A stretch of 64,000 nt of DNA. Origin: Octopus sinensis (taxonomy: Eukaryota). The notes beneath the pieces were generated by a model. The model was not told the origin of the DNA. It searched no databases and saw nothing but the letters and a program-made list of their open reading frames with translations. The stretch spans positions 1,736,001-1,800,000 of the forward strand of contig NC_042997.1 in NCBI RefSeq assembly GCF_006345805.1, given 5' to 3'. The position numbers and the translations under genes are program-made. The first letter of the stretch is position 1, and every line of letters starts with the position of its first letter. Positions 25,034 to 62,200 of the stretch are shown here, piece by piece.

Positions 25034-25169
25034 CAACTGTTTCTCTCTTCTCGCTCTCGCTCTCTCTTTCTGTATCTGTCTATCTGTATATCTGTCTATC
25101 TAGAGTCTAGATAAACAGAGTCTAGATTCTAGACACACAAATAATCATTACCATAAATATGTATGTATG

Positions 25170-25204
<35 letters not shown>

Positions 25205-25209
25205 ATATG

Positions 25210-25244
<35 letters not shown>

Positions 25245-25359
25245 GGCATTATTACACATAAATGCCTCACACTAAGAGGGACAAAGTCATTATTACCAAA
25301 ATTATACTAATCATACCTAAATGCAGTTTTTCAAAGCAAGACATTTAAAAAATGAATTT

Positions 25360-25417
25360 AGTTCTGTATCACCGTGATTTCACATTCAACTTACGTCTTA
25401 TGATCATCAGCAGAACT
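25360..25417 (-). ncRNA. Type I hammerhead ribozyme motif
   Basis: Minus strand reads agttctg CTGATGA tcat-aa-gac-GTAA-gtt-ga-atgt GAAA tcacggtga TA cagaact. Stem I is 7 perfect bp, the core is canonical, stem III is atca/tgat and the triplet is AUA. The stem II closing pair is U-U. Confidence 0.8.
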
Positions 25418-25944
25418 GATTCTGAACACATCATAAATAAACAACCAACCTTACGTAGCGAAGACGAACAGACAACTGGCCACTCCGGCCAAGCACATGG
25501 AATGTTTATAAATCATATATCCGGTAAATGGCGGGCTTTTTACGAACTGCATGTCGGGTAATGAAAAGTATTTCGGAATAAGTTTAACAATTAAGGATAA
25601 TCTCTTAATAAGGGATCTTAACAAGAAATTATCGGGTAGTTAGCCGATAATATAGATATAATTAATTTGTTCAAAAGAAAAAAATTATTTTCGAATTCTT
25701 TTCTTTTATGAGGTTTTCACGCTAACTACCCGATAATTTCTTGTTAAGATCCTTTTAAGAGATTATCCTTAATTGTTAAACTTATTCCGAATACTTTTCA
25801 TTACCCGACATGCAGTTCGTAAAAAGCCCGCCATTTACCGGATATATGATTTATAAACATTCCATGTGCTTGGCCGGAGTGGGCAGTTGTCTGTTCGTCT
25901 TCGCTACGTAAGGTTGGTTGTTCATTTATGATGTGTTCAGAATC

Positions 25945-26001
25945 AGTTCTGCTGATGATCATAAGACTAAGTTGAATGTGAAATCACGGTGATACAGAAC
26001 T
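25945..26001 (+). ncRNA. Type I hammerhead ribozyme motif (second copy)
   Basis: agttctg CTGATGA tcataagactaagttgaatgt GAAA tcacggtga TA cagaact. Has a 1-nt deletion in loop II relative to the minus-strand copy. Confidence 0.75.
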
Positions 26002-26303
26002 AAATTCATTTTTTAAATGTCTTGCTTTGAAAAACTGCATTTAGGTATGATTAGTATAATTTTGGTAGTATGACTTTGTCCCTCTTAGTGTGAGGCATTT
26101 ATGTGTAATAATGCCCTCTATACAATATAGATATATTAATAATTTGTTCAAAAGAAAAAAATTATTTTCGAATTCTTTTCTTTTATGAGGTTTTCACGCT
26201 AACTACCCGATAATTTCTTGTTAAGATCCCTTATTAAGAGATTATCCTTAATTGTTAAACTTATATATATATATATATTGTTATATATATATATGTATGT
26301 ATG

Positions 26304-26354
<51 letters not shown>

Positions 26355-26617
26355 TCTATATATATATATATATATATACATACATACAGTAGTAACTATA
26401 ATCAAATCTGGGGGAAAGCAAAAAATTGTGCAAGAAATATTCTATTAGAGTAAGCAATCCAATTATAATGAATACAGGTTTATTTTATTTATTCTCAGAA
26501 GTAAATCTGTCAATAAATCTATACATATTTACTTCCAATACGCGCACACACACACACCCACACTCACAATCACTCACACAGAAACACACCTTTATATATA
26601 TATAAGTTATATGAAAT

Positions 26618-26931
26618 AGTGGCTGTGTGGTAAGTAGCTTGCTAACCAACCGCATGGTTACAGGTTCAGTCCCGGGCCGACCAATGCCTTGTGAGTGGAT
26701 TTGGTAGACGGAAACTGAAAGAAGCCTGTCGTAATATATATATATATATATATATATTATGTGTGGTGTGTGTGTGTGTGTGTGGTGTGTGTGTGTGTGT
26801 GTCCCTAGCATGCTTGACAACCGATGCTGGTGTGTTTACGTCCCCGTCACTTAGCGGTTCGGCAAAAGAGACCGATAGAATAAGTACTGGGCTTACAAAG
26901 AATAAGTCCCGGGGCTTACAAAGAATAAGTC

Positions 26932-31919: not shown

Positions 31920-32360
31920 TTAAAGGTAAAAGAACAGAAGAATATGGAGGATTTCTTCAAGTCTCCTATCCTGATTCTGTGAGCTTTTGTAGTTTCCTCC
32001 CGGAAACGTGCGGTTGAGCATTGTCATAAAAAATAATTGAACCACACCGATTAACAGTGCATTTTGCTCAAGTGAAGATACATTTCTACCGGTTGCTAAA
32101 AGTAAATTTCCTATGTAATGAGCATATGTAATGTTAGGTTTAGAAAGCTGTATTGTTTTCAAATGCTGATCATCAAGGGTGGATGGGCATCCTCTACCGT
32201 CTTGATCAACATGGTTCCCATGTCCACTACGGAATCTCTCAAACCACCGTTGCACCGTCCGACCTCTAGTGGAACCTTCACCCCATGCTTTGCTGATATT
32301 GGCGGCTGTTTTGGAAGCATTGTGTCCAAGTTTTAATTCATGCACAAAAGTAAACACATT
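31920..32360 (-). mobile_element. Mariner transposase relic (Mos1/Hsmar1-like), internally deleted
   Basis: HTH region HELKLGHNASKTAANISKAWGEGST..RTVQRWFERFRSG. Another frame reads VNRCGSIIFYDNAQPHVS..KLQKLTESG*..PPYSSVL, matching the mariner HDNARPH and YSPDL motifs. Confidence 0.9.
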
Positions 32361-33921
32361 TTTGCTTTTTCAAGCTTGAATTTAAGGATTTCTACTATCT
32401 AAAATTATATTTCGAAAGAAATTAATAAAAAAATCATTAAAGGGTACACATCAACAATTAAGTAAGTAAGATTTTCTCTAAATCACTTCAAATATAACGC
32501 CTTAAATTGAATTTGAAAAGCAAACACGATACTGAATTATTCTCCGTCATACGTCTACGACCCTACCTCTTTTATTTTAAAAGTAAAGATAAACACTTTT
32601 TAATTGCGATAATGAAACAAGTGGTTGAGTTCTTAGCGCCAAAATCAATTTCTCGTGCAGAAGAGAGGGTGACATGTTCTCTCTTTTTCAATATTTATTG
32701 GAAGAGAGAATATGTTGTTATCAAAAACGTTGGGATTAATCCAATGAATTGGCAGCAAGGTATGTAAAAGTACTTTTCTCATCAAAACTTCTGTGTACGA
32801 TCCTGTCGCGCGCGCATTGACTCCAACACTTACAAGCAATTCTTGCTTCCAAATAAACATAATTGTGACGGGACCAAAATTTGGGACATATCTACAATAA
32901 CAACATGCCCACTAAAAACTAACCTTAACTCTATCCCTAAACCATAAACGTGTTTACAGCAAGGCCGGCGCTACGCACCTGTCACCCCTTCAGTTGCAGG
33001 GTTTCTCCGTGAAGAACTGGAATTACTATAATGTAAAACTTAAAATTCGATGTTAGACAACGTAATTTTTATAAGAAAAAAGTCGGAAGGTTTCTAAATA
33101 ACGAAAGCATTTCATACGGACGCCCGACCGATAAAAACTCTTATTACATTGATATAAGTTATTTATTCATTAGGTTCTTTAGTTAATATACACTGTAGGA
33201 TATCTTTCATTTTAATAAATTTTAAATTTCAATATTCCCGTGACATTAGTTAGATATGTCGACATGAGTTGTTTCAAATAATTGTTCGTGGGATGGACCT
33301 AATAATATTAGCTAGTGTACACTCGATATTTCAGATCTAAATTCGATAAGACTATTTCTACTTGCATAGGAATTACAAAATGTTATATCTTGATAAAATT
33401 CCAATACATATTTTTGGGTATTTTTGAAACAACTCGCCTTGTTAACACTTGATATTTCACATTTAAATCTGATGTGAGTATTTATTCTTGGATATGGATT
33501 AAAAATTAATATATGCTGATAACTTACATTCCCTATTTTAAAATTCTTCGAGCAACTCGACTGATTATCACTGAATATTTCTATTTTAAATCAAATGTGA
33601 ACAACCATACTTGGATAGAGATATTAAAAAATATTGTATACTAATAACTAACATTACATACAACTCGGTAAAGGAGGGGACGACACCTTCCCTCCTAGAC
33701 GGGTGGCTGCGGCACCTTTCTATACACTTCCCTATACCTTTCTCAGTTATACCACCGGTTAAAGTGGAAGGGTTTGAGGAACCTCTCCCCTACCCTTCCA
33801 ACCACCCCTCAACCTCTCATGACCATCCACCTTAACCCTCCTATTACACGCCCTCCATGGTAGTATTTCGTTACGTCGATAGCAGAAAGCGAATGAAAGG
33901 AGAAAGAGAAAGATGGACGTG

Positions 33922-35039: not shown

Positions 35040-35700
35040 TACCATCTGTAAATGATCTCAAAAAGCAGGTGTTTCCAAACATTGCACAAAACTTTAGCAA
35101 CAGTCTATGGCTAAGCGAGCGAACCATCTTAGTTCTACGTAATGATGCTGCCGACAGAATCAATTAGAATCGCTTGCAGCTGTTGCCAGGACCAGAACAG
35201 TCTTTCAAATCCATCGACACTGTCATTTATTGGGACGAAGCTGTAATTTTGTAAACTGTATTCCTGAACACACAACAGACATCCGGGATACCAACACACA
35301 AATTAACACTGAAATAGGAGCCCCAAACATGCTGCTTAGAAATCTATATCCACTTCGTCTTTGCAATGGCACCAGACTGGTGGTGAAATCTGTGTAACAT
35401 CAAGTCCTAGGAGCAGCAATTATTACTGGGAAATATAATGGAGAAGATGTCTTCATTCCACGGATCCTGTTTATCCCACCTGATCTCCCTTTTCAATTTA
35501 AACGATTCCAATACCCACTGAAACTGAGTTTTGCTATGACGATAAACAAATCTCAAGGACAATCTCTCAAGATTGTTGGACTTAATCTTGCTTCTCTTTG
35601 CTTCTCTCATGGAGAGAATATTCGTGAGTTGGAGGTCCTAGAGCTCATTTTAGGCGCATCCCAATTATAGAAAACATTGTATATTTAGAAGTTCTACAAA
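35040..35700 (+). pseudogene. Helitron PIF1-like helicase C-terminal relic
   Basis: WLSERTILVLRNDAADRIN; SGIPTHKLTLK/GAPNMLLRNLYPLRLCNGTRLVVK; VFIPRI..PDLPFQFKRFQYPLKLSFAMTINKSQGQSLKIVGLNL...FSHG; RNIVYLEVL. Contains stops and frameshifts. Confidence 0.92.
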
Positions 35701-59249: not shown

Positions 59250-62200
59250 CCGTTCAAAAAAGATCACTGTGCAAAGACAACAGACGCTAAGTGAAGAAAA
59301 CAGATAAGGACATAGCTCTTCTCAGTATCCAGAAATAAAGCGATGGAGAATGCAAGAAACCCAGGCAATGGTAATACCAGAAGAAGCAGAGGCATGGAGA
59401 AATGCAGATCGGCTGATGAGACAGGTGACATGTGCAATGGAAAGACCAGAATATTCAGAAGCACGGAGGAATGCGAATCAAATGAGAACCCAGGAAACCC
59501 GGGCAATGGAAAGAGGAATACTGATCGGCTGAGGAAGCAGGACTCTAGAGAAAACATATCACTGCCACAAATTCGGCAGCGAAAAGCAAACAAACAACTA
59601 GGCACGATACCAATCGAAACTTCGTCACCAAAGAACTGACACTGAGAGAACAGCTATGTAAGTTGATGTGGCATATTTTCATGAGAAAGAATGAAACCCA
59701 AGCCTTATGTTGTACTACTGTGGAAACATTTTTAACAGAACATGCCCTGACTGCAAAGCTTACCTTTGGAGGCTCCTGAGAAAGTTACCTTCTGATGTAG
59801 CAAAGGTAAAACTAGCAATGACAAAATTCTACAGATACAAAAAGCCCCCAGAATTAATAACTAAGTTCTATGATGTTAATCTCTGCAGTCACTTAGACTG
59901 GATTATCCACCAGTTGAACTACCGGGTGGTAGAACTTTTATGCTAACTTTCAAGATTCAAGAATAGTTGTACCACCGCATAGGCTGTCCCTACTAGCAGT
60001 AAATAGGAAGCCCATCTATGCACAGCTCTATTTCGTTGACGCTGAAAATGAAATGAGAAAGAGTCTGTCATTTAGAGGAGCTGACAATGACCCTGACGAC
60101 AACATCCTGCTAGACTTGCAGAGAGTACTGCAAATGCACAATCCGTATGTCAAAAGTTTTAAACAGGCTGTTGATATAATTAAGGAATACTCTGCACCAG
60201 GAAAAGTTTATACCGACGATATTATCATAATTGATGACAAACGGCTTATTCCTGCTGGGTCACATGTGAGAACCTATAGTCTATTAACTGCATCAGACGT
60301 TGCTGTGATTATGCTGGGAATGATACCAATAATCCAAACATTAAACCTCTGGATATTGTTGTGCAGTACAGAGAGAGCAATGGGAAGTTAGACTACATTA
60401 ATCAAATCCACAGAAGTTATGACCCTTTTTATTATGTACTTCTTTTTCCCTATAGGTACAATGGCTGGAATGTGCTCTTGACGGACAATGAGCGAAGCAA
60501 AAACAGTGATGAAAAGTACCAGGGTTTTCTGGATGCCATTGCAAATGGTAACACGAATGGCCTTGGGTAGGTTCTAAAATCATTCCTCTGCCATCACATA
60601 CTGGTTGTTCTCGGTTTTACAGGGTGTGTTTACAAGATGGTACGGCTCTGGTGAGAAAGTTTGGAAAGCCAGGATATTTCATCACTATGACAACAAATAC
60701 AAAGTTGACTGAGATATTGGAAGCCCTGTTTGAAGGTGAACAAACACAGAATCGACCTGATATTACAGCTATACTGTTTAAAATGAAGTACGGCTCCCTG
60801 AAATAAGATCCATTAAAGATGGGGAAAAATAGTAGAACATGTCTCAACAATTGAATGGCATAAGAGAGGTCTTCCCATGTCCAACTATTGCTCTCTATGG
60901 CTGCTTCAGATAAGCCAAGAACGTCAGAAATCATTGATCGATTTGTATGTGCGGAGATACTAGATAAGGATACGAATCTAGAACTATTGGATATTGTTGT
61001 AAAAAACAACGTTCACAGGCAATGTGGATGCCATAGTCCAAATAGTTCATACATGGATTGTGATCCACCAAAACCCAAAAACCATTCCCAAACAATGCAG
61101 ACGTACCACATTTGTGAGTGAAGAGTACAATCCAGAATACAGAAGTCGGTCACCAGCCTCTGGAGGCAGGCTACACATTAGAACTACTCGGATATCTGCT
61201 GAAGTAGAAAATACATCATAGTGCCATACAAACCGTTCCTATTCGATACAACTGCCATCTAAATGTTGACGCTTTGCACGCTGTTCTGGCGGTGAAATAA
61301 CTTTTCAGGTACCTCCCTAAAGGATCTGGTAGAGTCACTGTTGAAATCCGGCCCTAGTACTGAGAAATCAATTGGAATACCAGAAGTATTAAAGTGGTTG
61401 ACAATGAAATTGACACTTACCAAAATGCAAGATACATCACGTGTTTTGAGGGAATTTGGAAGATATTCAAATTTCCAATCCATTCCAGGCAACCCACTTT
61501 CATAAATCTTTCATGCCCTTTGAAAATTCATGATCTCTTACTTTTGATGATGAGCTGCCCGAAAATCTTCAGCTTGCTGCAAAAATAACTTTTTGTTATT
61601 CAATTAAATGAATATGACTCAGACGCCAGAGGCAAGCTATATACTGAAAATCGAAGGTATTACACTTAGAATAAAAACGAGAAGCGGTAAAAGAGGGAAA
61701 GGGAACAATCATGGAAGATGGCAACTATGAAACCAGTACTATTGGTCGCCTCCCCATTGTCGCTTACAATGTCCGGCAGATGCTACATTGTCGCTTACAA
61801 TGTCCGGCAGATGCTACATCACGTCAAAGTTCCCCAATCATACGCTGAATTACGGAATGTAAATGGTGATCTATCTTTCAACTAGGAAGACGTCAGAAAT
61901 AGGTGAATACAACATATCTATTCCTCCACCGCATTTGATTGACTCTACAAAGCTACAAGACCTTTGTGAAGTGGTATTCAGGGCTTTTGATAAGAGATAT
62001 AGAGAGGGACTATGGATGAACTGCAGATTCGTCAATATTCCTACAAGCAAGGCTGCTGAAGAAGTGAATACACTTGTCATGCCGAAACTAGTACAAGGGG
62101 ATAGTAAAACTTATTCGAAGCTGTAAAAATTTACCCGAAAATACGCCTAAGTTCCCACTGGAACTGATCTATGATCTCAATCCATCACGTTTTGGTTTTG

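What the first reader, a model, noticed from the sequence alone, without database searches (positions are those of the whole stretch)
25241..26263. ORF-less ~1 kb foldback element with a hammerhead ribozyme on each strand
Seen: ~400-bp inverted arms (25241-25644 / 25721-26119) around a 76-bp spacer, followed by a partial tandem repeat of spacer plus arm start (26125-26263), all inside (TA)n/(GA)n. Each arm holds a complete type I HHR (7-bp stem I, CUGAUGA/GAAA, AUA triplet). Established: Penelope-like elements carry HHRs in their pseudo-LTRs and often integrate as partial tandems with an inverted segment, and non-autonomous retrozymes are HHR-delimited RNA units. Inference: a young non-autonomous ~470-bp PLE/retrozyme unit. 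Read-through in either direction would give a 400-bp dsRNA hairpin containing one sense ribozyme, a potential ADAR or small-RNA substrate in which hairpin formation competes with self-cleavage.
Basis: partly seen in the sequence, partly recalled or inferred. Interest (0 to 1): 0.78.

Follow-up and report, generated by a model that had tools for sequence, protein, structure and literature searches.

The report
Penelope-type retrozyme insertion, twice-primed palindrome
This palindrome is one ordinary copy of a young, repeated 480-base jumping sequence with a hammerhead-ribozyme motif, and its sibling copies suggest that the two mirror arms are likely copied separately during insertion, probably by a borrowed Penelope-type enzyme.

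Summary
The structure is real. The arms are 396 of 404 columns identical, and each holds a type I hammerhead motif whose stems covary across related families.

It is not a stand-alone foldback element. It is one insertion of a young, ORF-less family (A) whose unit is 480 bp; the 'spacer' is part of that unit. An exact hammerhead pattern has 201 genomic hits (families A and B), control 0.

Of 48 sampled family-A loci, all sit in (TA)n and 28 are head-to-head inverted. All 28 pair one 'long' with one 'short' fixed 3' end, the known Penelope-like tandem/inverted/tail layout. In 14 of 52 inverted loci neither arm lies inside the other, which favours separate priming over pure fold-back.

No autonomous element shares the unit (five Neptune-type families checked), but two chimeric insertions join an older relative directly to Neptune-type ORFs.

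This copy is probably a dead end: one hammerhead per strand, always transcribed after its antisense arm, with a U·U pair closing stem II. Cleavage, circles, editing and small RNAs remain untested. New member of a known kind; the value lies in the family-level mechanism data.

The parts
25153..25240 (.). Left target microsatellite, (TA)n/(TG)n ending in (GA)n; the arm joins (GA)n directly and lacks the family's usual TA-rich bases beyond unit 480
25241..25644 (-). Inverted arm: unit positions 77-480, 5'-truncated, 'short' 3' end pointing left
25245..25266 (-). Short-end hairpin (GGCAUU...AAUGCC) just 5' of the short end; conserved in 15 of 15 aligned copies at its core pairs, almost without compensatory change
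25360..25417 (-). Type I hammerhead motif, predicted cut after 25367; U·U at stem II base, GUAA tetraloop, near-palindromic stem III
25628..25651 (+). Inversion junction (25644|25645) with an 8-bp micro-hairpin ATTATCGG/CCGATAAT and a 4-nt templated-looking insert (25645-25648)
   Evidence: sequence directly
25649..26119 (+).
25945..26001 (+). Type I hammerhead motif, predicted cut after 25994; a 1-nt deletion turns the GUAA loop into UAA (1 of 79 aligned segments)
26094..26115 (+). Short-end hairpin, internal copy
26120..26264 (+). Partial next unit (1-143) = the 'tail', ending at the family's fixed 'long' 3' end
26209..26246 (+). Long-end hairpin (-15.2 kcal/mol as folded on the family-A unit); hairpins also fold here in families B, C, D
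   Evidence: not recovered by RNAalifold
26265..26386 (.). Right target (TA)n; no target-site duplication can be read in it

Best explanation
This is one 5'-truncated insertion of a young, repeated, ORF-less 480-bp unit with a hammerhead motif (a non-LTR retrozyme), likely copied from RNA into a (TA)n microsatellite by a Neptune-type Penelope reverse transcriptase/GIY-YIG enzyme supplied in trans. SHOWN: repeat unit, tandem arrays, (TA)n sites, two fixed 3' ends, variable 5' ends, head-to-head inversion with one long and one short end, same haplotype in both arms. INFERRED: the enzyme nicks both target strands. One TA-rich 3'-OH primes at the long end (unit 143) and the other at the short end (unit 480 plus a few TA-rich bases), each just 3' of a hairpin. 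The two cDNAs stop at variable points and are joined by microhomology, giving a palindrome with a ~135-nt tail on one side only. A minority of loci look like cDNA fold-back instead. INFERRED: templates are uncut multimers or circles, since no 5' end maps to the ribozyme cut. PREDICTED: the ribozyme is weak alone and works best as a dimer through its near-palindromic stem III. This locus is likely a dead-end copy. It has one hammerhead per strand, so it cannot release a unit-length RNA, and read-through would zip the ribozyme into a 400-bp duplex. Odds: identity as a PLE-mobilised retrozyme copy about 0.9; Neptune-type enzyme about 0.75; separate priming as the main route about 0.55.
For: Family: 159 matches from 40 scored of 1111 candidates, full-length ones 90-100% identical; 201 exact hammerhead hits for A+B against 0 control; arrays of up to 10 near-full units (L254). 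Layout: of 48 family-A loci (all A sites in the first 100 of the 201 rows, this locus included), 28 inverted (28 of 28 long+short), 10 single long, 10 single short; 20 of 29 junctions show 1-21 nt microhomology; 0 of 78 5' ends at unit 353-357. This matches Craig et al. 2021 Fig. 2 (PMC8557442, passages). Same template family: opposite arms differ by 0.88% substitutions (23 pairs) against 2.42% between loci (3072 pairs); locus-private variants are shared across both arms in several loci. Separate priming: neither arm fits inside the other in 14 of 52 loci, 11 of them by more than 20 nt; here the long arm begins at unit 5, next to the short-end site. Hammerhead: 94.4% of cells paired over 19 variants, 8 of 15 pairs change on both sides, covariation 0.55 against 0.03-0.09 for slid controls; core columns invariant except position 7. 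Enzyme: Neptune-type RT+GIY-YIG ORFs of 775-781 aa exist and end in (TA)n. Two loci join the older family C to Neptune-type coding DNA with no TA run between: L380, a C short-end arm head-to-head with a truncated N5 arm that ends in N5's own tail; and L381.
Against: No autonomous element with the unit as pLTR: families N1, N2, N4, N5, N6 have other 3' ends in the copies read. The two chimeras involve old family C, not A, and are 2 of 6 sites where a unit lies within 450 nt of a PLE ORF; the other 4 have a TA run between. 12 of 52 junctions are mirror-like within 10 nt (p = 0.006 and 7e-5 against uniform), which fits fold-back; in 28 of 52, this locus included, the short arm fits inside the long arm, so fold-back is not excluded here. 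The hammerhead fold lies 4.6 kcal/mol above a misfolded minimum, and the shuffle control did not separate the number of covarying pairs (98 of 500) or of pair types (483 of 500). RNAalifold did not recover the long-end hairpin. No expression, cleavage or circle data. In Li et al. 2026, 8 of 9 Xenopus retrozyme dimers did not cleave.
Confidence: 0.78

Rival explanations
1. Same element, but every inversion is made by self-priming fold-back of one cDNA (or of an antisense template), as proposed for rotifer Penelopes; the second arm would be copied from the first.
For: 12 of 52 junctions mirror within 10 nt; 38 of 52 have one arm inside the other; an 8-bp micro-hairpin sits at this junction; hypothesis in Arkhipova et al. 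2013 (PMC3846280, passages).
Against: 14 of 52 loci have neither arm inside the other; in L380 the two arms are different elements. Trimming after copying could rescue some cases.
Confidence: 0.25
2. These are only truncated terminal repeats of an autonomous PLE not yet found, not an independent retrozyme.
For: Same layout as PLE ends; L381 shows ORF, UTR and unit in that order; only 150 of 5029 GIY-YIG candidates were scored.
Against: Head-to-tail arrays of up to 10 ORF-less units; none of the 48 sampled A loci has a unit running into a PLE ORF; close relatives of L381's ORF end differently.
Confidence: 0.1
3. The palindrome at this locus is an assembly artefact from fold-back long reads.
For: Five 1-nt gaps in the middle copy; run contigs carry three of the missing bases.
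Against: Arms have different ends and flanks and 3 substitutions; 27 of the other 47 loci show the same rule with their own junctions; 1-nt deletions are common in all copies (mean 0.76 per 100 nt).
Confidence: 0.04
4. The locus is a selected hairpin-RNA gene (small-RNA or ADAR substrate) in which the ribozyme acts as a switch.
For: Predicted -728 kcal/mol hairpin on either strand.
Against: Such hairpins arise in 58% of sampled copies as a by-product; the copy is under 1% from its nearest siblings, so young; no host-gene Pfam hit among 88 window frames scanned; no A>G excess in family copies.
Confidence: 0.05

Closest known systems
Metazoan non-LTR retrozymes (Cervera & de la Peña 2020, PMC7229834; Li et al. 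2026, 10.64898/2026.07.22.740005)
   Same: Low-GC, ORF-less tandem units, one type I hammerhead per unit, monomers to multimers, co-occurring with PLEs. A U·U pair at the base of helix II is described for axolotl HHR_Amex2 (22% monomer cleavage).
   Different: 480 bp is above the 150-450 bp of the 2020 paper, within the 51-972 bp of 2026. The passages read describe no inverted arms, fixed double ends or (TA)n targeting for retrozymes. RNA circles not shown here.
EN+ Penelope-like element insertions, Neptune type (Craig et al. 2021, PMC8557442; Arkhipova et al. 2013, PMC3846280)
   Same: 5' truncation, partial tandems, head-to-head inverted copy, tail on one end only, microhomology junctions, (TA)n bias, hammerhead in the repeat.
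   Different: No RT/EN ORF; tail about 135 nt rather than 30-40; no autonomous family found sharing the repeat.
Non-autonomous Chlamys PLEs such as MRC1 (Craig et al. 2021)
   Same: Non-autonomous, multicopy head-to-tail insertions with pLTR-like ends.
   Different: Those resemble their autonomous partners at the 3' end and mostly lack hammerheads.
L1 twin priming (recalled, not read here)
   Same: Two target nicks prime on the RNA and give an inversion with 3' ends facing outward.
   Different: Here both priming sites are fixed, the template is tandem, and one case joins two different RNAs.

Membership tests
Non-LTR retrozyme | Type I hammerhead in each unit | tested here: met
Non-LTR retrozyme | Tandem units of a few hundred bp, dispersed, GC under 50% | tested here: met
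   480-bp period, arrays up to 10 units; 159 of 480 positions G or C
Non-LTR retrozyme | No protein coding | tested here: met
   longest internal frame 70 aa; no PLE protein match in the window
Non-LTR retrozyme | 'Active' copy: two consecutive units with complete hammerheads (Li et al. 2026) | tested here: not met
   This locus has one per strand; other family loci do meet it
Non-LTR retrozyme | Self-cleavage in vitro | not testable with these tools
   folding energies only
Non-LTR retrozyme | Linear and circular unit-length RNA in tissues | tested here: inconclusive
   Only contigs, RNA status guessed; a circle junction equals the tandem junction
Canonical hammerhead | G10.1-C11.1 pair | tested here: not met
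   U·U in family A, A-U in B, G-C in D
EN+ PLE insertion | 5' truncation, partial tandem, inverted copy, tail on one end | tested here: met
   28 of 28 and 52 of 52 long+short; tail longer than published
EN+ PLE insertion | Microsatellite target bias | tested here: met
   TA-rich flank at the 3' ends of 48 of 48 loci, by inspection
Autonomous PLE | RT plus GIY-YIG ORF | tested here: not met
Non-autonomous PLE derivative | Repeat shared with an autonomous family's pLTR | tested here: inconclusive
   Not shared with N1, N2, N4, N5, N6; two chimeras; search covered best candidates only
Foldback or MITE DNA transposon | Fixed terminal inverted repeats in all copies, with a TSD | tested here: not met
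   20 of 48 loci have no inversion; junctions vary; the two ends differ

The most novel reading that the evidence does not exclude
Penelope-type integration uses two independent priming events, each set by an RNA hairpin and able to use two different RNA molecules. The retrozyme would then be a generalist parasite of several Neptune families without sharing their terminal repeat, and able to carry a full-length 5.3-kb LINE as cargo to new sites.
Probability: 0.3. Interest if true: 0.68.

Novelty: new member of a known kind. Interest (0 to 1): 0.4.

Why it matters
How Penelope-like elements make tandem/inverted insertions with a one-sided tail is an open question (Craig et al. 2021), and the claim that they mobilise retrozymes rests on co-occurrence and pLTR similarity. 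This family gives dozens of young, short insertions with a strict rule (52 of 52 long+short), cases that pure fold-back cannot give, and two retrozyme-Neptune chimeras. A 480-nt RNA with two mapped priming sites is a small substrate for an in vitro assay. The single locus itself is ordinary.

Tried and rejected
Rfam: nothing at gathering; generic hairpin hits only.

Partner search: the unit against 30 GIY-YIG loci and 10 longer regions gave no hit better than E 0.1. Long gaps inside arrays were LINE insertions, not PLE ORFs. 50 loci with the conserved tail motif gave only the two chimeras. Relatives of both chimeric ORFs have their own 3' ends. N6 shares only a 21-nt patch at E 0.01. A larger fetch of N5/N6 regions could not be made, so N5 ends rest on short flanks plus two complete ends.

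Independent support for the junction: no listed contig of 4 runs bridges 25644|25645; inconclusive, as the animals may differ and records are filtered.

Contigs of X1 and X5 cover family sequence, which is no proof of transcription.

ADAR signature: A>G 20 on 138 A positions against G>A 24 on 85 and C>T 23 on 74, 205 segments of 60 loci; none.

Circle versus linear multimer template: arrays share haplotypes but are partly mosaic; undecided.

Lünse et al. 2017 was not held and is not used.

Literature: 'octopus+Penelope+hammerhead', 'retrozyme+cephalopod', 'Octopus+Penelope+Neptune+transposable elements' and 'Penelope-like+twin priming+inverted', listed no description of this family or of twin priming for PLEs. 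Repbase and Dfam were not searchable, and supplements were not read, so the family may be catalogued there.

Full report
Observation. The arms differ by 3 substitutions and 5 one-base gaps. Two hammerhead descriptors in the window exceed all 60 shuffles. Rfam does not see them.

What it is. The window is G000:C1:1736001-1800000 of a 2.72-Gb genome. The arm belongs to a young dispersed family, here called A. Its true unit is 480 bp, and the 'spacer' is the start of that unit. The locus reads: unit 77-480 on the minus strand, a 4-nt insert, unit 5-480, then unit 1-143. An exact hammerhead pattern has 201 hits and 0 control hits, covering A and a sister family B (474 bp, about 75% identical). Leads from run contigs gave two more relatives: C (777 hits of a 25-nt motif, older) and D (46 hits, canonical G-C at stem II). 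The units of B, C and D were ORF-less in every copy read.

Architecture across copies. I took every family-A site in the first 100 of the 201 pattern rows: 48 loci, this one included; a local duplicate in L118 and a family-B part in L110 were dropped. This sample needs one intact hammerhead, so it under-counts short copies. There are two fixed 3' ends in ribozyme sense, a long one at unit 136-144 and a short one at 480, both running into (TA)n. 28 loci are head-to-head inverted and all 28 have one end of each kind; 20 are single-arm, 10 long and 10 short. 20 of 29 junctions show microhomology, and 0 of 78 5' ends fall at the ribozyme cut. This is the Penelope-like layout of Craig et al. 2021 (passages and Fig. 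2 legend) and Arkhipova et al. 2013 (passages), with a longer tail. The regularity, and arms with different ends, argue against a fold-back read artefact. Independent reads did not settle this locus.

How the inversion forms. Both arms come from the same sub-lineage (0.88% against 2.42%; private variants shared across arms). In 52 simple inverted loci (27 from the sample, L073 left out as complex, plus 25 best-scoring extras) all are long+short. In 14 neither arm fits inside the other, 11 by more than 20 nt; in 12 the junction is a near mirror. Pure fold-back cannot give the first group without later trimming; separate priming alone does not predict the second. I infer separate priming at two sites as the main route and fold-back as a minor one. 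Each end lies just 3' of a predicted hairpin. The short-end hairpin is conserved with almost no covariation, and RNAalifold missed the long-end one, so their role is a lead only.

Which enzyme. The genome holds several RT+GIY-YIG families with the CxxxxCxxC linker that Craig et al. give for Neptune and Nematis; 'Neptune-type' rests on that motif, not on a tree. Five were read to their 3' ends or 3' regions, and none shares the unit. Two old loci are chimeric. In L380 a family-C arm with a short end is joined head-to-head, without TA, to a truncated N5 element (79% over 415 nt) that ends in N5's own tail (77% over 110 nt). In L381 an N4-like ORF end and UTR (83% over 605 nt) run into unit C and its long end. 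Four other sites near PLE ORFs have a TA run between and are likely independent insertions. This is suggestive, not proof, and concerns C rather than A.

The ribozyme. Over 19 variants from all families, stem I and the base of stem II covary and the core is invariant apart from position 7; two of five shuffle measures were not exceeded. In family A, stem II is closed by U·U, as in axolotl HHR_Amex2 (PMC7229834, passages). Stem III is unstable alone but self-pairs at -11.9 kcal/mol, and the hammerhead fold is 4.6 kcal/mol above the minimum. This fits the dimer model (PMC4209133 and PMC7761336, passages). A circularised unit folds well (z = -4.6 against 40 shuffles). At this locus the antisense arm precedes the sense arm on either strand and there is no second same-strand hammerhead, so I expect neither cleavage nor circles from it. 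No host-gene domain was found in 88 of 105 candidate frames scanned; short exons would be missed.

Comparison. It works like, and by sequence criteria is, a non-LTR retrozyme inserted in Penelope fashion. The link of retrozymes to PLEs is already proposed (Li et al. 2026, parts 1-3 of 5 read), and non-autonomous tandem PLEs are known. The searches listed under Tried and rejected found no account of this family. Supplements and repeat databases were not seen. Two unchecked notes of this scan describe similar insertions in other genomes; none covers this sequence or genome.

Verdict. Real; a new member of a known kind; the single locus is ordinary. The family-level rule, the chimeras and the LINE-bearing arrays make a testable case on an open mechanism. 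Interest 0.4.

Noticed in passing
L101:2061-7350, L151:1395-6688, L152:1496-6650; also L273, L275, L276, L279, L289: A ~5.3-kb LINE (ORF1 zinc knuckle, APE, RT) sits antisense at the same position (unit 452) of family B in 8 of 30 LINE 3' ends read (56 matches), with a 13-bp TSD in the two loci read at both ends. It always lies in the 5'-most partial unit, and in L151 the inverted arm carries 170 bp of the LINE's end. The 8 copies are not one clade (25 of 30 rows, p-AU 2.5e-5). Either cargo transport by the retrozyme with later LINE escape, or repeated targeting.
   Followed up: partly
L102:2344-4040 and L325 after 2227: A second LINE-like element is inserted in sense at unit 258 of family A in two loci.
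   Followed up: partly
L380:1358-5508 (G000:C1:1611000-1620900) and L381:2514-4400: Chimeric insertions of retrozyme family C with Neptune-type elements; L380 was later interrupted by a mariner-like element.
   Followed up: yes
L065, L063, L413, L426, L454: At least five Neptune-type families ending in (TA)n; ORFs of 772-782 aa are open in N1, N2, N4 and N6, while the N5 copies read are broken. N1 and N4 have a separate upstream ORF of ~480 aa (no Pfam hit for N1's). N1 and N5 also show two 3' ends. No canonical hammerhead was found in N1 or N2.
   Followed up: partly
L063:7012-7060: An unrelated small hammerhead-bearing insert in (TA)n with a palindromic CUCGAG stem III; a similar motif in L034.
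   Followed up: no
L331, L351, L376, L347, L336: Further, older relatives of the unit with longer stem II, so the lineage has many subfamilies.
   Followed up: partly
L004/L005 (G000:C23), L118, L138, L169: Whole insertions, junction included, are duplicated locally; segmental duplication or assembly duplication.
   Followed up: no
window 35146-35394, 60552-60803, 31923-32369: Helitron (Pif1, Helitron_like_N) and mariner (HTH_48) fragments.
   Followed up: no
window 26600-26930: A common short interspersed repeat seen in many fetched flanks, here with a 23-bp tandem end.
   Followed up: no
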